Shown one piece after another: positions 4,659 through 36,520 of a DNA stretch of 64,000 nucleotides. A program made the translations under genes and the position numbers. Under the pieces are notes generated by a model. The model searched no databases, had not been told where the DNA came from, and was given only the letters and a program-made list of their open reading frames with translations. Location: the IMG/VR virus record IMGVR_UViG_3300032295_000548, positions 64,001 through 128,000 of that record. One strand, 5' to 3'. Within the stretch, counting starts at the first letter, position 1, and every line of letters begins with the position of its first letter. Source of the stretch: a virus (lineage: Duplodnaviria; Caudoviricetes).

Positions 4659-5448
4659 ACGCATTTTTGCGTTTGGATGCAGTTTTACTGCATATGGCTG
4701 GCCTACATGGGCGGATATCATTGCAGTAGAAGCTAAAACAATTAGAACTGAACCTTACGGGTCTCAGTATTTTAACTATGGAGTATCAGGATTGGGTAAT
4801 CTAGGCATTATGGCTAGAATAGCAGAGGCAAATGCTAGATATAGATTCAATCAAGATGATTTAGTCATGGTCATGTGGTCTACATATAGTCGTGAAGATC
4901 GTTGGCTTAATGACGGATGGTATGCAATGGGTAATGTTTGGAATAGTCCATATCCTGATGAATGGGTTAAAGACTTTTGTGATCCAGTTGGACATATGAT
5001 TCGTGACCATGCTATTATTAATCATACTAACAAAATGTTAAAAGAATCTAAAGCTGATTCATTGATATTGCGTAGTGTACCCTTTAAACACAGCGATGCC
5101 ATTGAACTGGATGATCCAGAAAGAATTGAAACATTGTCTTTATTGTATCAACGTGAATATGATGATTTACCCATGTCTTTATATGATTTCTTAGGTCGTG
5201 ATTGGAGTAGAGATCCAGTTCCTTTTATAAATCACACTGGAAAATTACATAATGATTCGCACAGTAAACCAATAGTTTACTATGACTATTTGGAAGCATG
5301 TGGAATAGAACTTAGTAAATCTACATATGAATATGCTTTGGATAGCACTAATCTATTGGCTCGATGCAAAACACATCATGACATAAGAAATACTTTTGAA
5401 CTTCCGAATAGAAACTTATTAAGCAAAAACTTTCATCCATTGTTATGA
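4627..5448 (+). CDS. SGNH-hydrolase-like protein
   Basis: FAFGCSFT, NYGVSGLGN and DSH motifs. Confidence 0.6.
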   Translation: MHNNIDLKKYKRIFAFGCSFTAYGWPTWADIIAVEAKTIRTEPYGSQYFNYGVSGLGNLGIMARIAEANARYRFNQDDLVMVMWSTYSREDRWLNDGWYAMGNVWNSPYPDEWVKDFCDPVGHMIRDHAIINHTNKMLKESKADSLILRSVPFKHSDAIELDDPERIETLSLLYQREYDDLPMSLYDFLGRDWSRDPVPFINHTGKLHNDSHSKPIVYYDYLEACGIELSKSTYEYALDSTNLLARCKTHHDIRNTFELPNRNLLSKNFHPLL

Positions 5449-6542
5449 AATACATTTATATTCGAAGTGGTCAACTGTTAACAACTAATGACAATATTAG
5501 CCAGGACGCTATTGATAGTTCTAGGAATTACTTTAATGATGCACTATTGTCTCAAAATTTCGAAACCGGGGACACTATAATATTCACGTTAATAGTAGAA
5601 AAACTTAGCTCAATTTTCAAAGAAGTATTAGAGAACATGATTAATCTATGTGAAATGCATGCCAAATCAGTGAATGCACCTTGTCATTTTCTATTTCATG
5701 ATACAGCAAGAATGTTTAACATCAAAAAAGATAACTTACATTATATAGATACGTGGGCTTGGGTTACTTATAAACATAGTAAAAACGCACATAGAAAAAG
5801 ATGGTATCCAAATTCAGATAAAGCATTGTTCTTAGTAGGTAAGCCCCTAAGACTACATCGAATTGGTCTATTAGCTGAATTCAATAAACACAATATACTA
5901 GACTATTTGGACTTTACTTTTCATCTTCCACCCACTGTTGAAAATATAAATTCTATTAAGTTAATGGGCATTGCTGGATTAGATGATGACACCTATATAC
6001 ATAAACTGTTGGTTGACTTGCAAAGACCTAGTCTAGACCTTAACTTGGAGAAGCAAGCAATCCACACTGGGTTTGAATACACTGGCTTTCCTACTAACCT
6101 TAAATATTATAGAAATACTTGCATGAGCGTAGTAAGTGAGAATAGTTTTGAAATGCAACCCTATCACTTTACTGAAACGTATTCTACGCCCTATCTTACA
6201 GAAAAAATATTCCGTTCTATAATCAATCATCACCCGTTTATATTAATAGGTGATGTTGGTATCGATGAATATGTTGAGAGTTGTGGGTATAAAACATTCA
6301 ATAAGTTCTTTTTACCAATCACTGATTCATCTAGAAAACTTGCAGAAAACATTTTGACTTGGGCCGCAACGAGTGTAAAACACTTTATCGAACACAAACA
6401 TAAACATATAGATGAAATCAACGATATAGTAGAACATAATTATCAAGTGTTCATGTCTAAAGTACCAGCAGAAATTGATAATTTACAAACGAAGTTTCCC
6501 AAAATTGATTTAAATCACACTGAAATGTTTGGGCCACTATAA
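5445..6542 (+). CDS. Glycosyltransferase-like protein (same paralogue family)
   Basis: GKPLRLHR, SEN...LTEKIFRSIINHHPF motif. Confidence 0.5.
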   Translation: MKYIYIRSGQLLTTNDNISQDAIDSSRNYFNDALLSQNFETGDTIIFTLIVEKLSSIFKEVLENMINLCEMHAKSVNAPCHFLFHDTARMFNIKKDNLHYIDTWAWVTYKHSKNAHRKRWYPNSDKALFLVGKPLRLHRIGLLAEFNKHNILDYLDFTFHLPPTVENINSIKLMGIAGLDDDTYIHKLLVDLQRPSLDLNLEKQAIHTGFEYTGFPTNLKYYRNTCMSVVSENSFEMQPYHFTETYSTPYLTEKIFRSIINHHPFILIGDVGIDEYVESCGYKTFNKFFLPITDSSRKLAENILTWAATSVKHFIEHKHKHIDEINDIVEHNYQVFMSKVPAEIDNLQTKFPKIDLNHTEMFGPL

Positions 6543-26206: not shown

Positions 26207-27236
26207 AAATTTAAACTACATTGGTCATAACCAATGGAATGGCCTTAACTTTCAAAATTTTTATGAGAAAGTGATTAACGGCAACTATGACAAAGTAATA
26301 TTATTTTCACAGAATGAGTGGGCACATCACCATCACAATCCTGAATATTTTCCTTTGCTACAAGAGCATATGAAAAGAATAGGTAAGCCCCTACATATCA
26401 TTACTTCGGCACATAAACATTTGTACCCAGTTGAACTAGAAAATACTCAAGTACATTGGTATGATACATATTGGATGTGCAAAACGTATGGACAATTATT
26501 ACACGTTAGTAAAGGTAATAAGATATCAATTGATCCCTACGAAACGGTAGATTACAAATATCATTATCTTTCTATGAACCACAGGCCCCATCTGCATCGT
26601 TGTTTGTTAATTGATTTGTTGGCTAAACACGATTTGATGAAGTATGGTGCTATATCATTACACAATGCACCAGTACCTGAACTGTATCAATGGAAATATT
26701 TTGATTACAAACCACTAATATTAGATCAACAATACTCCACTGAAAAAAATTATAACCTTGTACCTGACCAATATTATGAATCGTTCGTACAACTGATAAG
26801 TGAAGCTTCAGGTGATACTATAATGATGTCTGAAAAAACAGCAATACCGTTATTGTTAGGTAAACCTTTCTTAGTTGCTAGTCAGATGCATTTCCATAAG
26901 TTCTTGAAAGGACTAGGATTTGAGCTATATGATGAAATATTTGACTACAGTTTTGATGACGAACCGAACGAAGAAAAAAGATATGAAATGCTTTTGGAAA
27001 ACTTCAAGAGATTGTGTCAAATACCGTTAAACGAACTAACTCAATTACAACAACGCATAGCTAACAAAGTATTGTTTAATAAGAAACATGCCAAATCATT
27101 GGTATTTGACACTACAACATGCCCAGAACTAGCTATGGAAGTTATCAATTACTACAAAGATACCGGAACTATCATAGACAAGCACTTGATAGATGACTAC
27201 GAAAACTGTATAATGTACAAAGACCATGAGATTTGA
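26196..27236 (+). CDS. Glycosyltransferase-like paralogue (tandem duplicate of the preceding gene)
   Basis: Collinear similarity to the 25151 ORF along its length; start moved to the ATG at 26196. Confidence 0.55.
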   Translation: MSGKNLNYIGHNQWNGLNFQNFYEKVINGNYDKVILFSQNEWAHHHHNPEYFPLLQEHMKRIGKPLHIITSAHKHLYPVELENTQVHWYDTYWMCKTYGQLLHVSKGNKISIDPYETVDYKYHYLSMNHRPHLHRCLLIDLLAKHDLMKYGAISLHNAPVPELYQWKYFDYKPLILDQQYSTEKNYNLVPDQYYESFVQLISEASGDTIMMSEKTAIPLLLGKPFLVASQMHFHKFLKGLGFELYDEIFDYSFDDEPNEEKRYEMLLENFKRLCQIPLNELTQLQQRIANKVLFNKKHAKSLVFDTTTCPELAMEVINYYKDTGTIIDKHLIDDYENCIMYKDHEI

Positions 27237-27261
27237 CATAAATACTGAAAGGTGATACAAT
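27233..27261 (+). promoter_or_regulatory. Sigma70-type early promoter
   Basis: TTGACA-17-TACAAT with extended TG. Confidence 0.7.
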
Positions 27262-27262
27262 C

Positions 27263-27376
27263 ATGATTATGAATAAAGTTTTGGCACTAAAAGGATTACT
27301 AGCACTATTGGGCTTATACATAGCCTATAAGTTAGGACTTGAACTTTGGTGTATTGCGTATGGATTGTTAATGTAA
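27263..27376 (+). CDS. Small hydrophobic membrane peptide (35-37 aa, not in ORF track)
   Basis: MIMNKVLALKGLLALLGLYIAYKLGLELWCIAYGLLM; directly after the promoter; its stop overlaps the next SD. Confidence 0.6.
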   Translation: MIMNKVLALKGLLALLGLYIAYKLGLELWCIAYGLLM

Positions 27377-27385
27377 GGAGCGTAT

Positions 27386-27610
27386 ATGAAACGTCTTATT
27401 GGTGCTATTGTTGTTTTGGGTAGTCTTGTTGGTTGTGCAACACCTCAGCAAACTGCCGCACTGACAGGTGCAGTAGTCGGAGCCGCGGTAATGAGTTCAG
27501 TGTACGCACACCCTGCACCTAGACCGTTGCATTGCTACACCACTAGAAGTGTAATTGGATATGATATCTATAACCGTCCGTTGTACCAACATCGTCAGGT
27601 TTGTAGATAA
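27386..27610 (+). CDS. Small lipoprotein
   Basis: Signal peptide with LVGC lipobox; glycine-zipper-like TGAVVGAAV; AAGGAG SD. Confidence 0.7.
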   Translation: MKRLIGAIVVLGSLVGCATPQQTAALTGAVVGAAVMSSVYAHPAPRPLHCYTTRSVIGYDIYNRPLYQHRQVCR

Positions 27611-27611
27611 A

Positions 27612-27945
27612 AGTTAAGACTGTATGAAGTAGACAGAAAAGGATTCAAGACCCGGGGGCAGTTCCCGGCAGGTCCACCAAAAGGAGATATGATGAAGCCA
27701 GCTTATGTGATAGCAGTAGTACTATTAATAGGATTGATTTACTTTCATGTCTATTTTTGATGGGCCTGACATAGATTTCGATTGGGTCAAGAGTATTGAA
27801 ATGGACAGTCCGGCAATGTAGAAGCCGTTAGGATTGGGGTAACCCGGTCGAAGAAGCAAAACAAAGTAAACGCAAACGACTCACAGTTCGCATTAGCTGC
27901 CTAAACTCAGCTTAGGGTAAGACATACCTCGTAACAGAAACTCTA
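27612..27945 (+). ncRNA. ssrA: Circularly permuted (two-piece) tmRNA: acceptor piece about 27612-27679, intervening segment 27680-27761, coding piece 27762 to about 27945
   Basis: T-arm CCGGG-GGCAGTT-CCCGG plus CAGGTCC-ACCA lies upstream of the 5' strand GGGCCTG; 7-bp acceptor stem with G3:U70; tag ANDSQFALAA* at 27872-27904. Outer ends approximate. Confidence 0.92.
27689..27760 (+). CDS. 23-aa hydrophobic ORF inside the tmRNA intervening segment
   Basis: AAGGAG SD at 27681; MMKPAYVIAVVLLIGLIYFHVYF*. Confidence 0.55.
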   Translation: MMKPAYVIAVVLLIGLIYFHVYF

Positions 27946-27946
27946 G

Positions 27947-27970
27947 AAAGCCCACTTCGGTGGGCTTTTT
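27947..27970 (+). terminator. Intrinsic terminator after tmRNA
   Basis: AAAGCCCAC-TTCG-GTGGGCTTTTT. Confidence 0.9.
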
Positions 27971-28103
27971 ACCATATAGTATTGCTTATTGAGTAAACAC
28001 TACGTATACTTTACTTTATGAATTAATTTATTTGATAGGTTTTTATCAAGTAAATATTATTCTAGCCTGTTGAAAGACAGGCTTTTTATTAAAGGAAAAT
28101 TTT

Positions 28104-28985
28104 ATGAAGAAAATCGTAATGGCAACATTATTTATGGCAGCTACAGGTTTAGCTAGTGCTCAAGTATCCCTATCAGGAAAGGTCAGCGAGTTCGTTGATT
28201 CTTCTAAGGTGGCCGGCAACAAAAGCACTCAGTTGGTTACAGCACCAACTAGTAACTTTGCTTTGTCTGTCAATGAAAAATTGGGCGGTGGTCTAACTGC
28301 ACGTGCTGTAGTCGAAACTTCACTAAGTGGTAACACCATTGATGGTGTTGGTACTAAGTTGGGTGATCGTCAAGGTACTGTAGGTCTGTCAAGCAAGCTT
28401 GGTAGCGTTGATCTAGGTCGCAATGTTCATAGCCATTTCTTAGCAATCACAAACAACGATACTTTCAGTACATTGTTTGGTAGTGTTGCAGGTGATGTTC
28501 ACAATCTACGTAATCTACGTTTAGGTGATGCAGTGTTCGTTAACGTAACTCCTGTTAAAAACTTAGCAGTTGCTTATGAGCGTTCACAAGTTGCTGTTGG
28601 CCAAGAGGCTACAGTAGTTGCAGGTTCTACTAAAGTAATGGGTGTGAATGCATCTGTTGCTCGTTTCGAACAAGGTACTGAAAAGAGTACTGTTGTTGGA
28701 TTGAACACAACCATTCTAGGTAACAAGGTTACATATACTCATAGCGATGACCAAGGTCTAGTAAAGAGTAAGGGCGACTTGGTTGGTGTTGCACGTGATT
28801 TTGGTGCTATCACTGCTAAGGCAAGCTATGGTACTACAAACACAGACGTTAAAGCATATGCATTAGGTGCTGATTATAATTTCAGCAAGCGTACTGCATT
28901 GACTGTTGCATATCGCAATGTCAACAAGACAGGTTCAGCACATGACGTTGAACAAGTAGGTGTAGGTTTGACACATCGTTTCTGA
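28104..28985 (+). CDS. Gram-negative general porin
   Basis: Signal peptide (ASA-Q), amphipathic beta strands, LGADYNFSKRT, C-terminal GVGLTHRF with terminal Phe. Confidence 0.9.
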   Translation: MKKIVMATLFMAATGLASAQVSLSGKVSEFVDSSKVAGNKSTQLVTAPTSNFALSVNEKLGGGLTARAVVETSLSGNTIDGVGTKLGDRQGTVGLSSKLGSVDLGRNVHSHFLAITNNDTFSTLFGSVAGDVHNLRNLRLGDAVFVNVTPVKNLAVAYERSQVAVGQEATVVAGSTKVMGVNASVARFEQGTEKSTVVGLNTTILGNKVTYTHSDDQGLVKSKGDLVGVARDFGAITAKASYGTTNTDVKAYALGADYNFSKRTALTVAYRNVNKTGSAHDVEQVGVGLTHRF

Positions 28986-30707: not shown

Positions 30708-31808
30708 ATGTCTAAAGTTTCTGACAATCTCACAATCACTAGCGTTCAAGCCCGCAAGGCTGTTCTCAAAGCTTTTCAAGCAAAGCGCCCTGTTTTCTTG
30801 TGGGGCCCTCCCGGCATCGGCAAGTCTGAGGTTGTTCAAGAAATTTCCGATGAACTCGGTGGTTTCGTTATTGACTTGCGTATGGCGCAAATGGAGCCTA
30901 CTGATATTCGAGGCATCCCTTACTTCAACAAAGATATCAACAAGATGGATTGGGCCGCACCCGTCGATTTGCCCGATGAAGAATTCGCAAGTCAATACCC
31001 CGTTGTTGTTCTGTTCCTCGATGAAATGAACTCTGCACCTCCTGCTGTGCAAGCGGCTGGTTATCAACTTATTCTGAACCGTCGTGTAGGTAAGTATAAA
31101 CTCCCTGACAATGTTGTTATCGTTGCGGCAGGTAACCGTGATAGTGACAAAGGTGTGACATATCGCATGCCAATGCCCCTCGCTAATCGTTTCTTGCACT
31201 TGGAAATGCGAGCCGACTTTACTGCATGGCAGAACTGGGCTGTTGACAAAGGCATTCATAAGGACGTGGTTGGTTATTTGTCTTTTGCAAAACAAGACTT
31301 GTACGAATTTGATTCTAAGTCTGCATCACGTGCGTTTGCTACTCCTCGCTCTTGGGTATTCGTGTCTGACTTGTTGAAAGACGAGGACGTTGACACTGAC
31401 ACATTGTTCAACTTGGTTGCAGGTGCTGTTGGTGAAGGTCTTGCTGTTAAGTTTATGGCCCACCGCAAAGTTGCAGGTCGTATGCCAGAACCCTCTGACA
31501 TTCTTTCTGGTAAGGTCAAGGACCTCTCTGTCAAAGAAATCTCGGCTATGTACTCACTGACTGTTTCTATGTGCTACGAATTGCGTGATGCACTTGAGAA
31601 CAAGAAGGTGAACAACAAAGAATTTCATGAAATGGCAAAGAACTTCTTTGAGTACATCATGAAGAACTTTGAAACTGAATTGGTAGTTATGGGTGCTAAG
31701 ATTGCACTCAAGACTTACAAACTTCCAATCGAACCCAGCTTGCTTGGTACTTCGTTTGACGAATTTCACAAGAAGTACGGTAAGTACATTGTGGAAGCTG
31801 GCAACTGA
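30708..31808 (+). CDS. MoxR-like AAA+ ATPase
   Basis: GPPGIGKS Walker A, LFLDE Walker B, AAGN, PLANRF, TPRSW. Confidence 0.9.
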   Translation: MSKVSDNLTITSVQARKAVLKAFQAKRPVFLWGPPGIGKSEVVQEISDELGGFVIDLRMAQMEPTDIRGIPYFNKDINKMDWAAPVDLPDEEFASQYPVVVLFLDEMNSAPPAVQAAGYQLILNRRVGKYKLPDNVVIVAAGNRDSDKGVTYRMPMPLANRFLHLEMRADFTAWQNWAVDKGIHKDVVGYLSFAKQDLYEFDSKSASRAFATPRSWVFVSDLLKDEDVDTDTLFNLVAGAVGEGLAVKFMAHRKVAGRMPEPSDILSGKVKDLSVKEISAMYSLTVSMCYELRDALENKKVNNKEFHEMAKNFFEYIMKNFETELVVMGAKIALKTYKLPIEPSLLGTSFDEFHKKYGKYIVEAGN

Positions 31809-31855
31809 TCCTAAGAGACAGTTGTTTACTCCCGGGGTAGAAATACCCTGTTACA

Positions 31856-31883
31856 GGGTGGGAGTAACATCTCACCCTTTTTT
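31856..31883 (+). terminator. Intrinsic terminator
   Basis: GGGTGGGA...TCTCACCC followed by a T-run. Confidence 0.7.
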
Positions 31884-31896
31884 ATAAGGTAATGTT

Positions 31897-32049
31897 ATGA
31901 GTGGTAAAAAGTATTTTTACGCATTGGGTCAAAGTGCCCGAGCACGTGGATTGACAAAGGATCAAGGTATTGAATTGTACAAACTTCAATCTGCCCTACC
32001 TTTTGCTCTCATTGCATTTGATGCAGGATATCGAGGAATGTCACTATGA
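31897..32049 (+). CDS. 50-aa hypothetical protein (not in ORF track)
   Basis: AAGGT SD; MSGKKYFYALGQSARARG...; ATGA overlap with the next gene. Confidence 0.6.
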   Translation: MSGKKYFYALGQSARARGLTKDQGIELYKLQSALPFALIAFDAGYRGMSL

Positions 32050-32294
32050 CTGAAAAGAAGAAACCCGAAATTGTTTTTGCCCCAGGATGCTTTGATAATT
32101 TTGATGGCACCCAAGAAGAACTTGATGAATTGGTTGCAGAAATTAACCGTTTAGTTGACTCCGGTGACATTTTTAAAAAATCAAAACCACTCGATCCGGA
32201 TACATTAGATGATGAAGAATTGGAAATGCTCTCCGATATCTTAAATGCATTAGAAGATGGTGAGGACCAACCTCCTGGTCGCTTGCTCAACTGA
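32046..32294 (+). CDS. Acidic hypothetical protein
   Basis: FAPGCFDNFDGTQEELDEL. Confidence 0.65.
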   Translation: MTEKKKPEIVFAPGCFDNFDGTQEELDELVAEINRLVDSGDIFKKSKPLDPDTLDDEELEMLSDILNALEDGEDQPPGRLLN

Positions 32295-32296
32295 GG

Positions 32297-32325
32297 TTGA
32301 CAGTAATTCCGTTTCCTGCTATAAT
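32297..32325 (+). promoter_or_regulatory. Early promoter
   Basis: TTGACA-17-TATAAT with extended TG. Confidence 0.85.
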
Positions 32326-32350
32326 AAAACATAAACACTAAAGGACCATT

Positions 32351-33634
32351 ATGAGTGAAGTTATTGACAAGCGCAAAACTAAAAAGCACAATGACAAGTT
32401 TGATAAACTTGTCGGCCCTACTGACCCTAAAGTAGATCATCAAGCACGTGAGCGACTGGTTACTGCACGTATCGGTTTACTATTGCGTCATTCATTCTTT
32501 GGTAATTTGGCTACTCGCCTGACTCTTATCAATGCCGATGACTGGTGCAGTACAGCGGCTACTGACGGTCTCAAATTCTATTACAACTCCCGCTTCATTA
32601 TGATGTTGCGCCCTAAAGAGGTTGAGTTCCTCGTGGCGCACGAAGTCCTGCACGTTGTCTACGATCACATGGGCCGTCGTGGTACACGTGACCCGCAAAT
32701 GTTTAACATTGCAAATGACTATGCAGTCAATGCTGACTTGAAGCGACACAAAGTTGGTGAATTCATCAAGACTGTACCTTGCTTGTATGAACAAAAGTAT
32801 GATGGCAAATCGTCTGAGGAAATCTATGATGACCTCATGAAGAATATTCAAAAGATTGATATCAATAGCCTCATCGATCAAATGATTGACGATCACCTCG
32901 ACGGTGATGGTGATGGTGAAGGTGAATCAGATGGTGACGGTAACAAAGAGGGCAAAGGTAAGCGCCCGCAAATGTCTACTGAAGAACGTGAACGTGCCCG
33001 TCAAGAAATCAAACAAGCGATTCTCAATGCCGCGCAAGCTGCCGAAGCAGGTACATTGCCCAAAGGTGTTGAGCGTTTGATTCGTAGCGTTACTGATCCA
33101 GTTATGCCCTGGCGTGAACTGATTCAAACAAACTTGACTAGCGCAATTCGTACTGACTTCTCTTGGATGCGCCCTTCACGTAGAGGTTGGCACATGGATG
33201 CTATCATGCCCGGCATGACTCCAGGTGAAGAAATCGATGTTGTCGTTGCTATTGACATGTCAGGTTCTATCTCTAACAAACAAGCACAAGCTTTCTTGGG
33301 TGAGATTGGTGGCATGATGGATGCGTTTGATGGCTACAAGGTTCACGTATTCTGTTTCGATACTGAAATCTACAACCCTGCTGACTTCACTAGCGAGAAT
33401 CTTGATTCAATCGATGGATATGAGCCTCAAGGTGGTGGTGGCACTGACTTTGATGCTATCTTTGAATACTTAAAACAAGTTGGCAATGTGCCCAAGCGAC
33501 TGATTGTTTTCACTGACGGTTACCCTTGCGGTTCTTGGGGTGACGCTGATTACTGCGACACTACATGGATTATTCACGGTGACCCTAACCCGAATCCCCC
33601 ATTCGGTACTTACGCATTGTATGATGACAAGTGA
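32351..33634 (+). CDS. Zincin metallopeptidase + vWA domain protein (DUF2201-like)
   Basis: TAATDG, HEVLH, MIDAS DMSGS, GGGGTDF, FTDG. Confidence 0.9.
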   Translation: MSEVIDKRKTKKHNDKFDKLVGPTDPKVDHQARERLVTARIGLLLRHSFFGNLATRLTLINADDWCSTAATDGLKFYYNSRFIMMLRPKEVEFLVAHEVLHVVYDHMGRRGTRDPQMFNIANDYAVNADLKRHKVGEFIKTVPCLYEQKYDGKSSEEIYDDLMKNIQKIDINSLIDQMIDDHLDGDGDGEGESDGDGNKEGKGKRPQMSTEERERARQEIKQAILNAAQAAEAGTLPKGVERLIRSVTDPVMPWRELIQTNLTSAIRTDFSWMRPSRRGWHMDAIMPGMTPGEEIDVVVAIDMSGSISNKQAQAFLGEIGGMMDAFDGYKVHVFCFDTEIYNPADFTSENLDSIDGYEPQGGGGTDFDAIFEYLKQVGNVPKRLIVFTDGYPCGSWGDADYCDTTWIIHGDPNPNPPFGTYALYDDK

Positions 33635-35175: not shown

Positions 35176-35624
35176 AACTGATCGTAGCATGTGACCCTAA
35201 AGGTGGGATAGGCTACAACAACAAATTGCCCTGGAGTAAAATCGAGGGCGATTTGCCAAGATTCAAGGAACTAACAACAGATAAAAATGTTGTTATGGGA
35301 AAAAGAACTTGGGAAAGCCTACCAATCAAACCATTACCAAACAGACATAACTATGTTATGTCTAAAGTTTCCATACCCGGAGCAGTTACAATGGGTGATG
35401 TAAAATTACTACCTAACACTGCAGGCAATGATGCATGGATAATAGGTGGAGGCAACGTGATTCAACAATGTTGGGATATGATAGATGAAATACATCTTAC
35501 TAAAACATTTGCCGAATACACTTGTGATACATTCATCGATCTAGTAAAATTAGAAAAAGAATTTATGTGTTGGTTTAAAGAGCAACACGTTGACCACTCA
35601 TACGAGATTTGGAAAAGAAAATGA
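35172..35624 (+). CDS. frd: Dihydrofolate reductase
   Basis: IG..NKLPW, D..RFK, VMGKRTWES, PLPNR, IIGG. Confidence 0.95.
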   Translation: MKLIVACDPKGGIGYNNKLPWSKIEGDLPRFKELTTDKNVVMGKRTWESLPIKPLPNRHNYVMSKVSIPGAVTMGDVKLLPNTAGNDAWIIGGGNVIQQCWDMIDEIHLTKTFAEYTCDTFIDLVKLEKEFMCWFKEQHVDHSYEIWKRK

Positions 35625-36520
35625 AACAGTATCACGATTTACTACAAGACATTTTAGATAACGGAGAAATTAAAGATGATAGAACTGGTATTGGTACCCA
35701 TAGTGTGTTTGGCCGTAATCTTCGCTTTGATTTGCGTAGAGGCTTTCCCGCTATCACTACTAAAAAGCTTGCATGGAAAGCTTGTGTCGGTGAACTTCTC
35801 TGGTTCATTGAAGGCTCTAGTGATGAACGTAGACTGGCAGAACTCACCCATGGTACTGCCGAAGGCAAAGTCACAATCTGGACGCCTAATGCGCTTGCGC
35901 CGTATTGGAAACCAAAAGCGAAGTTTGAGGGAGACTTGGGTAGAGTCTATGGTGTGCAGTGGCGCCACTGGAATAAAGACACCGTTGAGAAAGACATGGG
36001 CCCGGCGCACAAAGGTGGCACACGCCTCGCGGTGGATAGGACGGAAGTCGACCAACTAACCAACTTGTTAGAAGGATTAGTCAAAGATCCTAATGGTCGC
36101 AGACACATTCTCAGTGCATGGAACGTGAGTGAGTTAGATCAAATGGCATTGCCACCTTGCCACGTTATGAGTCAATTCTATGTGAATAAGAATAAAGAAT
36201 TATCTTGTCATATGTACCAACGTAGTGTTGATGTGTTCTTGGGTCTACCGTTCAACATTGCTAGTTATGCATTGCTCACTCATTTGATTGCACATCATTG
36301 TGGATTGAAAGTAGGTGAGTTGATTATTAGTACAGGTGATACTCACATCTATAAGGATCACGTTGAGCAAGTCAAAGAACAATTGTCACGCACTGAATTT
36401 CCCGCACCATTGTTGATGTTGAATTCTCAGAAGAATAACATTTTTGAAATGACAATGCAAGACATTCACTTAGAGAATTATCAGAGTCACGATCAAATTA
36501 AAGCGAGTATGGCAGTATGA
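35621..36520 (+). CDS. thyA: Thymidylate synthase
   Basis: DRTG, YGVQWR, MALPPCH, YQRSVDVFLGLPFNIASY. Confidence 0.97.
   Translation: MKQYHDLLQDILDNGEIKDDRTGIGTHSVFGRNLRFDLRRGFPAITTKKLAWKACVGELLWFIEGSSDERRLAELTHGTAEGKVTIWTPNALAPYWKPKAKFEGDLGRVYGVQWRHWNKDTVEKDMGPAHKGGTRLAVDRTEVDQLTNLLEGLVKDPNGRRHILSAWNVSELDQMALPPCHVMSQFYVNKNKELSCHMYQRSVDVFLGLPFNIASYALLTHLIAHHCGLKVGELIISTGDTHIYKDHVEQVKEQLSRTEFPAPLLMLNSQKNNIFEMTMQDIHLENYQSHDQIKASMAV

What the first reader, a model, noticed from the sequence alone, without database searches (positions are those of the whole stretch)
27678..27761. tmRNA intervening segment hides a membrane micropeptide gene whose RBS is locked in a stem
Seen: the 82-nt spacer that is normally excised and discarded is almost completely filled by AAGGAG plus ATG-ATG...TGA, encoding MMKPAYVIAVVLLIGLIYFHVYF (one TM helix, similar in size to type I toxins or membrane modulators). 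Its ends, CAAAAGGAGATATGA (27678-27692) and TCATGTCTATTTTTG (27745-27759), pair over about 15 bp with one mismatch. This extends the acceptor stem and sequesters the SD and start codon. Inference: one transcript could yield both a tmRNA and an mRNA, with translation coupled to folding or RNase P / 3' processing of the tmRNA. I know of no description of such an arrangement.
Basis: partly seen in the sequence, partly recalled or inferred. Interest (0 to 1): 0.87.

Follow-up and report, generated by a model that had tools for sequence, protein, structure and literature searches.

The report
Peptide gene inside phage tmRNA spacer
The 82-base spacer that is cut out when this large phage's two-piece ribosome-rescue RNA (tmRNA) matures very probably carries a real gene for a 22-23-residue membrane peptide, and related phages use the same stem-closed spacer as a swappable slot for other small genes.

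Summary
Window 27618-27904 is a permuted (two-piece) tmRNA gene (Rfam RF04321, 104 bits). Its spacer, 27680-27761, holds AAGGAG, ATG-ATG and a 23-codon frame ending in TGA one base before the coding piece. A 15-position stem (one mismatch) covers the ribosome-binding site and first start codon.

Evidence that it is a gene:
- Four other viral contigs carry the same peptide family in the same slot. One differs by three bases, all synonymous. Two sit in beta-type tmRNAs and keep length, frame and hydrophobicity despite 18-20 base changes.
- Among 27 spacer types of the clade, all 12 with a Shine-Dalgarno motif have a spacer-filling ORF; none of 15 without one do.
- Other cargoes are real genes: a 122-aa family also occurs in ordinary gene arrays.

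The closing stem occurs in all spacers, coding or not, so it is a structural element the genes exploit, not a dedicated lock.

Translation, coupling to processing, and toxicity are untested.

I found no published description. This scan's unchecked notebook holds 42 notes in at least 33 genomes matching a word search for tmRNA-spacer peptide ORFs; the eight shown describe the same arrangement on other DNA.

Verdict: a new variant of coding sequence nested in an excised stable-RNA segment.

The parts
27233..27261 (+). Sigma-70-like promoter (TTGACA, 17 nt, TACAAT, with TG). It is the likely start of a transcript covering two small envelope ORFs and the tmRNA gene.
   Evidence: 11 of 12 matches. 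No promoter at or above the 9-of-12 threshold lies directly upstream of the tmRNA. Co-transcription is inferred.
27263..27376 (+). 37-aa hydrophobic peptide ORF upstream of the tmRNA.
   Evidence: No Pfam match.
27386..27610 (+). 74-aa ORF with a lipoprotein-like signal (LVGC). It ends 7 nt before the tmRNA match.
   Evidence: No Pfam match.
27618..27679 (+). tmRNA acceptor piece: 5' helix strand, T-arm, 3' acceptor strand CAGGUCC, discriminator A and CCA.
   Evidence: RF04321, 104.3 bits, alignment.
27680..27761 (+). Intervening segment (82 nt), removed from the mature two-piece tmRNA by homology with characterised permuted tmRNAs.
   Evidence: Excision itself is inferred.
27678..27692 (+). 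5' strand of the closing stem. It contains the last two CCA bases, the SD and the first ATG.
27681..27686 (+). Shine-Dalgarno AAGGAG.
   Evidence: An SD motif is present in all 12 ORF-bearing spacer types and in none of the 15 ORF-less types.
27689..27760 (+). Micropeptide ORF of 23 codons plus TGA (22 codons if started at ATG 27692). It encodes one hydrophobic helix.
   Evidence: family members L145, L146, L147, L148.
27745..27759 (+). 3' strand of the closing stem. It contains the last codons and the first two bases (TG) of the TGA stop.
27762..27946 (+). tmRNA coding piece: 5' acceptor strand GGGCCUG, then the body, including the tag reading frame.
   Evidence: RF04321 to 27904; RF01849 to 27949.
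27872..27904 (+). Tag reading frame ANDSQFALAA*.
   Evidence: and the alignment.
27947..27971 (+). GC-rich hairpin followed by a T run, a likely intrinsic terminator of the tmRNA transcript.
   Evidence: Read from the sequence. The pattern scan did not list it.

Best explanation
The spacer of this phage's permuted tmRNA gene is a small protein-coding cassette. The precursor is probably transcribed from the promoter at 27233 together with two small envelope ORFs. It carries, between the CCA end of the acceptor piece and the RNase P site of the coding piece, an SD-led ORF for a 22-23-aa single-helix membrane peptide. All spacers of this phage clade are closed by a stem of 9-17 paired positions that continues the acceptor stem. 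The gene is written into that hairpin, with the SD and start in the 5' strand and the stop in the 3' strand. Ribosomes most likely load on the nascent RNA in the short time before the 3' strand is made, or at a low rate on the folded or excised hairpin. tRNA-type processing then releases the two tmRNA pieces. The slot is exchangeable. Sister phages with near-identical tmRNA halves hold other membrane peptides, soluble 30-122-aa proteins, or non-coding hairpins. The same peptide cassette also occurs in diverged tmRNA genes. Shown here: the anatomy, conservation of the stem, and comparative signatures of coding. Inferred: excision, translation, its timing, and membrane location. The peptide's function is unknown. 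My best guess is a phage accessory membrane factor such as a lysis-timing, exclusion or envelope modulator, with no obligatory link to trans-translation.
For: (1) The tmRNA is intact: RF04321 104 bits, G3:U70, tag ANDSQFALAA*. (2) A search constraining only the CCA end, the SD and the first three codons found the same slot and family in L145, L146 and L147. A 3'-anchored search added L148. L145 differs at 3 of 82 nt, all synonymous third positions. L146 (MMNPAYVISGILLLTVVLIHVYF) and L147 (MMNPAYVISGILLLTAILVHVFF) keep an 82-nt spacer, the frame, the shared stop and the hydrophobic core despite 18-20 base changes. In 20,000 simulated sequences each, random changes kept both the open frame and the hydrophobicity in only 0.6% and 1.9%. 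T occupies codon position 2 in 14 of 23 codons in all three lineages. L148 (MQKCRACDLIVITLLIFVIILHVFF) has a different N-terminus but the same SD-ORF-shared-TGA layout. (3) L146 and L147 tmRNAs score as beta type (RF01850), while the window and L145 score as alpha-like. (4) Clade-wide: 12 of 12 SD-bearing spacer types have an ATG a few nt downstream (15 nt in the two largest cargoes, L002 and L097) and an ORF covering 70-94% of the spacer. 0 of 15 SD-less types do. Grouped by my own reading as about 10 versus 11 independent families, a hand-computed Fisher test gives p about 3e-6. (5) The summed log10 P of the open frames against shuffles is -16.7 over 11 spacer types, two pairs of which are close relatives. 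Hydrophobicity is frame-specific. (6) For two other spacer-peptide pairs, dN/dS is 0.19 and 0.23. Changes at codon positions 1, 2 and 3 number 7, 4 and 17, and one Ser is kept through AGT to TCC. (7) Other cargoes are real genes. The 122-aa ORF of L097 has 31 homologues: L141 and L143 lie inside spacers, and L138-L140 (53-76% identity) lie in ordinary gene arrays without tmRNA. The 101-aa ORF of L002 has 94 homologous clusters. The 41-aa spacer peptide of L087 has a homologue (about 60% identical by eye) just upstream of the tmRNA in L144. (8) The predicted mean unpaired probability of the SD is 0.61 in the nascent RNA, 0.24 in the full precursor and 0.28 in the excised spacer.
Against: The window's frame alone is open by chance at P = 0.14. 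Between the two deep lineages of the window's family, dN/dS is 0.63-0.94, which is not clearly below 1 on about 60 nt. The conserved N- and C-terminal residues overlap nucleotides that pair in the hairpin, so RNA structure could explain part of the conservation. Frame +2 also stays open over the 19 middle codons tested, although it has no start codon or SD. The SD and first ATG are predicted to be mostly paired once the RNA folds. No Pfam or PHROG family matches the peptide. The closest published analogue, the S23p ORF in the Coxiella 23S rRNA intervening sequence, is reported as probably not synthesised in vivo (PMC4990558).
Confidence: 0.72

Rival explanations
1. The spacer is only a structured processing hairpin. 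The purine run is one strand of the closing stem, the ORF is incidental to a U-rich hairpin, and no peptide is made.
For: The closing stem exists in all 27 spacer types, with 92% of cells paired in register against 40-59% when slid, and with GC/CG covariation. 15 of 27 spacer types carry no ORF. The window's frame is open by chance at P = 0.14. The SD is mostly paired in the folded RNA. Deep-pair dN/dS is near 1. The Coxiella S23p precedent is apparently not expressed (PMC4990558).
Against: Spacers with an SD motif always have a spacer-filling ORF, and spacers without one never do. Hydrophobicity and frame are kept through 18-20 substitutions (p = 0.006-0.02). Changes between the closest pair are synonymous only. 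Third-position bias and a Ser codon-family switch occur in two other peptide families. ORFs of 64-122 codons fill longer spacers, and two of them have homologues elsewhere.
Confidence: 0.15
2. The ORF is translated, but the act of translation is what matters rather than the peptide. A ribosome running through the spacer to the TGA, 1 nt before the RNase P site, opens the closing stem and so times or limits tmRNA maturation.
For: The stop codon lies 1 nt from the coding piece's 5' end and inside the stem. The window's family and about four other ORF families end at this shared structural TGA. Cargo identity is highly variable between phages.
Against: Hydrophobic character is maintained within the family, and peptide-level constraint is seen in other families. 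Many sister tmRNAs work with ORF-less spacers. Some ORFs stop well before the stem (L007, L033, L002) or run past the spacer end (L006).
Confidence: 0.08
3. The peptide is a type I toxin-like membrane-damaging peptide. Its translation is held off by SD sequestration until the RNA is processed.
For: The product is a small single-helix hydrophobic peptide with its SD buried in a stable stem. Both features are typical of type I toxin mRNAs (established knowledge).
Against: No antisense promoter faces the spacer. Processing by RNase P and 3' trimming would leave both stem strands in the excised RNA, so it would not free the SD (0.28 unpaired in the excised spacer). No sequence similarity to any toxin family was found. 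The slot equally holds soluble proteins.
Confidence: 0.05

Closest known systems
Circularly permuted (two-piece) tmRNA genes of Alphaproteobacteria, some Betaproteobacteria, cyanobacteria and aquatic phages (Rfam RF04321, RF01849, RF01850; Keiler et al. 2000; Sharkady and Williams 2004; phage Melnitz, PMC9004378; database paper PMC11915505)
   Same: The gene order is acceptor piece, CCA, intervening segment, coding piece. The gene has G3:U70 and an ...ALAA tag frame. Phage-borne copies are already known.
   Different: The described intervening sequences are treated as discarded spacers. The 2025 database paper notes only a tRNA-Ala gene and a repetitive element inside two of them. The 48 non-clade spacer types in my sample are mostly under 60 nt (39 of 48). 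None of the 9 longer ones has an SD-led spacer-filling ORF. Here the spacer is a protein-coding cassette.
Intervening sequences of bacterial 23S rRNA carrying the S23p ORF (Coxiella burnetii, Leptospira; PMC4990558)
   Same: An ORF sits inside a stem-closed segment that is excised from a stable-RNA precursor and not re-ligated. The element is horizontally mobile.
   Different: The host RNA is rRNA and excision is by RNase III. The ORF is about 100 codons from one family, lacks a good RBS, is decaying, and is reported as probably not made in vivo. Here the host is tmRNA, the ends are tRNA-type (RNase P and CCA). The SD is strong and strictly associated with the ORFs, and the cargoes are many unrelated small genes.
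Homing-endonuclease ORFs in group I introns of tmRNA and tRNA genes (PMC11915505)
   Same: A protein gene is nested in a removed segment of a tmRNA gene.
   Different: Those are self-splicing introns in the T-loop, with exon ligation and a selfish endonuclease cargo. Here there is no intron (Rfam gave no intron match), no ligation, and the cargo is a membrane micropeptide.
Dual-function RNAs (S. aureus RNAIII/hld, E. coli SgrS/SgrT, B. subtilis SR1/SR1P) - from established knowledge
   Same: One transcript yields both a functional RNA and a small peptide.
   Different: In those the same mature RNA does both jobs. Here the coding part is the portion cut away from the functional RNA.
Type I toxin mRNAs (hok, tisB, and others) - from established knowledge
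   Same: A short hydrophobic peptide is encoded, and the SD is occluded by long-range pairing.
   Different: There is no antisense antitoxin candidate, no homology and no evidence of toxicity. The occluding stem is a generic spacer feature.

Membership tests
Permuted two-piece tmRNA (RF04321) | Covariance-model score above the curated threshold over the full model. | tested here: met
   104.3 bits against a gathering score of 47, model positions 1-213. Repeated on the whole record.
Permuted two-piece tmRNA (RF04321) | The 3' acceptor strand plus CCA lies upstream of the 5' acceptor strand, giving a 7-bp acceptor stem with the G3:U70 alanine determinant. | tested here: met
   CAGGUCC-A-CCA at 27669-27679 pairs with GGGCCUG at 27762-27768, including G27764 with U27673.
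Permuted two-piece tmRNA (RF04321) | A tag reading frame ending in hydrophobic ...ALAA plus a stop. | tested here: met
   ANDSQFALAA* at 27872-27904.
Permuted two-piece tmRNA (RF04321) | The precursor is cleaved into two pieces and the intervening segment is removed. | not testable with these tools
   No RNA data were available. Inferred from homology with Caulobacter tmRNA (Keiler et al. 2000, cited in PMC9004378).
Protein-coding gene (micropeptide) | An SD at a working distance, a start codon and an in-frame stop. | tested here: met
   AAGGAG 27681-86, ATG at 27689 and 27692, TGA 27758-60.
Protein-coding gene (micropeptide) | Frame and peptide character conserved in diverged homologues, with synonymous bias. 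| tested here: met
   L145: 3 of 3 changes are synonymous. L146 and L147: same length and frame, hydrophobicity kept, p = 0.006-0.02. Deep-pair dN/dS of 0.63-0.94 is inconclusive on its own.
Protein-coding gene (micropeptide) | Translation in vivo. | not testable with these tools
Type I toxin-antitoxin | A cis- or trans-encoded antisense RNA antitoxin. | tested here: not met
   No promoter-like site on the minus strand faces the spacer. This is a consensus scan only.
Type I toxin-antitoxin | The peptide is toxic or membrane-depolarising when expressed. | not testable with these tools
   This needs an expression assay.
23S rRNA IVS / S23p | Located in 23S rRNA helix 25 or 45, with an S23p-family ORF. 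| tested here: not met
   The host RNA is tmRNA. No Pfam match was found for the peptide.
Group I intron with homing endonuclease | A group I intron fold and an endonuclease ORF. | tested here: not met
   Rfam gave no intron match in the window at gathering thresholds. The ORF has 23 codons.

The most novel reading that the evidence does not exclude
The pre-tmRNA of these phages is a genuinely bifunctional transcript in which the closing stem acts as a kinetic gate. Each precursor can be translated roughly once while nascent. It then folds, shuts its own RBS and is cut by RNase P 1 nt after the stop codon. Peptide dose is thus tied to tmRNA synthesis, and ribosome transit competes with maturation. 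On top of this, the stem-flanked spacer is a dedicated cassette-exchange site, with conserved tmRNA halves as homology arms, that shuttles small membrane-peptide genes between alpha-like and beta-type phage tmRNA genes.
Probability: 0.25. Interest if true: 0.82.

Novelty: new variant of a known kind. Interest (0 to 1): 0.68.

Why it matters
tmRNA intervening segments have been treated as throw-away spacers. They are left out of covariance models and are invisible to gene callers, which rarely-codon ORFs inside an RNA gene. If these spacers are mRNAs, several things follow:
- A class of phage micropeptides is systematically missed in annotation.
- The stable-RNA processing machinery (RNase P, 3' trimming) and the ribosome act on the same short RNA, giving a compact natural system for studying competition between folding, processing and translation.
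- The spacer is a recombination slot that shows how phages pack cargo genes into the only dispensable part of an RNA gene.

The system is directly testable with a reporter fusion and stem mutants.

Tried and rejected
- ARAGORN found no tRNA or tmRNA in the window; only the covariance models see this gene.
- blastn of the tmRNA region against INPHARED phages found nothing.
- RF00023 (standard tmRNA) has no match in the 139-kb record.
- The 23-aa peptide is below the 40-aa minimum of the search for homologous proteins.
- Pfam and PHROGs give no significant match for any spacer peptide.
- A back-translated N-terminal pattern found only L146 and L147 again.
- dN/dS between the two deep lineages of the window's family is uninformative (0.63-0.94 on 60 nt). 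I replaced it with a simulation of frame and hydrophobicity retention.
- Keiler 2000 and Sharkady & Williams 2004 are not held in the library. They are cited only through reference lists and general knowledge.
- The idea that the conserved His near the C-terminus reflects function was dropped. CAT is the complement of the start codon ATG within the stem.
- The idea that the hydrophobicity is merely a result of U-rich composition was rejected. It is specific to frame 1.

Full report
**What is there**

The window is part of a 139-kb viral record estimated to be about 40% complete. Related contigs carrying the same tmRNA reach 332 and 376 kb, so this is a large uncultured phage.

Rfam places a circularly permuted tmRNA at 27618-27904 (RF04321, 104.3 bits; RF01849, 55 bits). 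ARAGORN misses it, and no standard tmRNA is present in the record.

Reading the sequence gives these parts:
- The acceptor piece ends CAGGUCC-A-CCA at 27669-27679.
- The coding piece begins GGGCCUG at 27762, with G3:U70.
- The tag frame is ANDSQFALAA* at 27872-27904.
- The intervening segment is therefore 27680-27761, 82 nt.
- It contains AAGGAG (27681-86), ATG at 27689 and 27692, and a frame of 23 codons, MMKPAYVIAVVLLIGLIYFHVYF, ending in TGA at 27758-60. That stop is one base before the coding piece.

Segments 27678-27692 and 27745-27759 pair at 14 of 15 positions (12 Watson-Crick, 2 G-U, 1 mismatch; -11.4 kcal/mol). They stack on the acceptor stem in the minimum-free-energy fold.

**Is it more than chance?**

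Taken alone, no. A 23-codon open frame in this composition occurs in 14% of dinucleotide shuffles. The evidence comes from relatives.

An exact-pattern scan for the acceptor piece gave 13 viral loci. A looser pattern gave 16 viral, 80 metagenomic and 40 genomic loci. I cut out every spacer between CCA and the matching 5' acceptor strand. In the clade sharing the window's acceptor strand there are 27 different spacer types of 25-394 nt. They split cleanly:
- **With an SD-like motif (12 types).** All 12 have the motif in the first 12 nt, followed by an ATG. The ATG is 3-6 nt after the motif in ten of them and 15 nt after it in the two largest cargoes. The ORF covers 70-94% of the spacer, and in about five of the ORF families, including the window's, it ends at the same TGA next to the coding piece.
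- **Without such a motif (15 types).** None has a comparable ORF.

Grouped by my own reading into about 10 and 11 independent families, a hand-computed Fisher test gives p of about 3e-6. The open frames give a summed log10 P of -16.7 against shuffles over 11 spacer types, two pairs of which are close relatives. Six families encode a single hydrophobic helix. That hydrophobicity is specific to the SD-defined frame.

**The window's own peptide family**

One scan constrained only the CCA end, the SD and the first three codons. It found three more spacers of exactly 82 nt.
- **L145** differs from the window at three positions, all synonymous third-codon positions. Its flanking tmRNA parts differ more, including a compensatory pair in the T stem, and it has its own consensus promoter.
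- **L146 and L147** encode MMNPAYVISGILLLTVVLIHVYF and MMNPAYVISGILLLTAILVHVFF. They have the same length, frame and stop, and 18-20 base differences from the window, concentrated in the middle. The helix stays hydrophobic (mean Kyte-Doolittle 3.1, 3.0 and 2.8).

In 20,000 simulations each, random changes of the same number and composition kept both the frame open and the hydrophobicity at the observed level in 0.6% and 1.9% of trials. T occupies codon position 2 in 14 of 23 codons in all three lineages.

The tmRNAs of L146 and L147 score as beta type (RF01850, 93-120 bits). The window and L145 score as alpha-like. The cassette is therefore shared by clearly diverged tmRNA genes.

A 3'-anchored scan added **L148**. 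Its 93-nt spacer has an SD and a 25-codon ORF, MQKCRACDLIVITLLIFVIILHVFF, ending at the same TGA.

The weak point is dN/dS. Between the two deep lineages it is 0.63-0.94 on 60 nt. The conserved peptide termini also coincide with paired nucleotides.

**Other cargoes show that the slot holds real genes**

- Two other spacer-peptide pairs give dN/dS of 0.19 and 0.23. Changes at codon positions 1, 2 and 3 number 7, 4 and 17, and one serine is kept through AGT to TCC.
- The 122-codon ORF in the L097 spacer has 31 homologues. Those in L141 and L143 (86% and 75% identical) are again enclosed by a permuted tmRNA. Those in L138-L140 (53-76%) lie in tightly packed ordinary gene arrays with no tmRNA.
- The 101-codon ORF in L002 has 94 homologous clusters, many as a domain of larger proteins.
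- The 41-aa spacer peptide of L087 has a clear homologue, about 60% identical by eye, that lies just upstream of the tmRNA promoter in L144, whose own spacer is non-coding.

**The stem**

Counting pairs in register from C27678-G27759 inwards, all 27 spacer types have 9-17 paired positions. Over the first 12 columns, 92% of cells pair, against 40-59% when the partner is slid by 1-3 nt. There are many two-sided changes; for example, one column reads GC 8, CG 10, GU 6, AU 1.

The stem is thus a selected feature of the spacer whether or not it codes. Presumably it keeps the two acceptor strands together for folding and processing. Coding spacers write the SD into its 5' strand and often use the TGA of its 3' strand as their stop. 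"RBS locked in a stem" is true, but the lock was not built for the RBS.

The predicted mean unpaired probability of the SD is 0.61 on the nascent RNA before the 3' strand exists. It is 0.24 in the full precursor and 0.28 in the excised spacer. Both strands lie inside the excised piece, so processing would not free the SD. The most plausible window for initiation is co-transcriptional.

**Context**

A consensus promoter lies at 27233-27261. It is followed by a 37-aa hydrophobic ORF, a 74-aa lipoprotein-like ORF, the tmRNA, and a hairpin with a T run at 27947-27971. A separately promoted porin gene follows. No promoter at or above the scan threshold sits directly before the tmRNA. The spacer ORF may therefore be the third small envelope ORF of one transcript. 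That is an inference.

**Cassette behaviour**

Sister phages with identical acceptor pieces carry unrelated spacers. L002 and L097 share the leader and the first six codons but then encode different proteins. L142 and L064 keep an orphan acceptor piece plus an SD-led ORF, followed by a second, complete permuted tmRNA. In L064 an HNH-like ORF lies between them.

Outside this clade there are 48 spacer types, from bacteria and other phages. Most (39 of 48) are under 60 nt, and none of the 9 longer ones has an SD-led spacer-filling ORF.

**Comparison with what is known**

Permuted tmRNAs, including phage-borne ones, are well described (PMC9004378, PMC11915505). The 2025 database paper mentions only a tRNA-Ala gene and a repetitive element inside intervening sequences. 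Five full-text searches and a read of a tmRNA survey paper (PMC4131195) found no report of a protein-coding spacer.

The nearest published analogue is the S23p ORF in the RNase III-excised intervening sequence of 23S rRNA, which is reported as probably not expressed in Coxiella (PMC4990558). Homing-endonuclease genes in tmRNA group I introns, dual-function sRNAs and type I toxin mRNAs each share one feature. I tested type I membership only through the antisense-promoter criterion, which is not met.

**Earlier notes of this scan**

The scan's unchecked notebook holds 42 notes in at least 33 genomes that contain all the search words for a tmRNA-spacer peptide ORF. The eight displayed describe the same arrangement, and their follow-ups reached similar readings. 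I treated these as leads. I re-derived the cassette and "inside or just ahead of the gene" points on my own loci. My scores rest on what I tested.

**Verdict**

The feature is real. The ORF is very probably (about 0.7) a translated micropeptide gene lodged in an exchangeable, stem-closed slot of a phage tmRNA gene. Expression, timing and function remain to be shown.

Noticed in passing
L064:1-1527 (minus strand as oriented); L142:1078-1810: Both loci have an orphan acceptor piece followed by an SD-led spacer ORF and then a second, complete permuted tmRNA with a different acceptor stem. In L064 a 162-aa HNH-like ORF on the other strand (L064:523-1011; Pfam HNH E = 7e-4, below the cut-off) lies between them. 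This hints at endonuclease-driven replacement at the tmRNA locus.
   Followed up: partly
L002:1912-2253, L097, L141, L142, L143: Spacers holding a 101-aa or an unrelated 122-aa protein share the same leader and the first six codons (MRIKEL) and then diverge completely. The ATG lies 15 nt after the SD, unlike the 3-6 nt of the peptide cassettes. The exchange junction seems to lie inside the first codons.
   Followed up: partly
window 27233-27610 and 28032-28985: A consensus promoter, a 37-aa hydrophobic ORF and a 74-aa lipoprotein-like ORF lie directly upstream of the tmRNA. A separately promoted Porin_4-family gene lies directly downstream (Pfam 2e-18). Together these form a cluster of envelope proteins around the tmRNA.
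   Followed up: partly
window 27652-27668: The T-loop of the tmRNA is GGCAGTT rather than the usual TTCGANT. The alpha_tmRNA model expects a similar loop, whereas relatives L146 and L147, which carry the same spacer peptide, have canonical TTCGA loops. ARAGORN fails on the window's gene.
   Followed up: no
L008, L050, L090 (108-nt spacers); L021, L025, L028, L047 (90-nt spacers): Non-coding spacers are conserved across several contigs with few changes. They may hold structured RNAs of their own. The Rfam scans were not run on these loci.
   Followed up: no
L002:199-637 and 4752-5638: Six tRNA genes flank the tmRNA within 4 kb in the 332-kb relative, so there the tmRNA sits in a translation-RNA cluster. 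The window itself has no tRNA call.
   Followed up: no
L146 (minus strand, coding piece): The beta-type tmRNA carrying the window-type spacer appears to have an unusually long reading frame that ends ...ALAA before its stop. This was read by eye and not analysed.
   Followed up: no
window 30708-33634: A MoxR-like AAA ATPase lies close to a DUF2201 metallopeptidase-VWA protein, a pairing typical of MoxR-VWA systems. Thymidylate synthase lies at 35609-36520.
   Followed up: no
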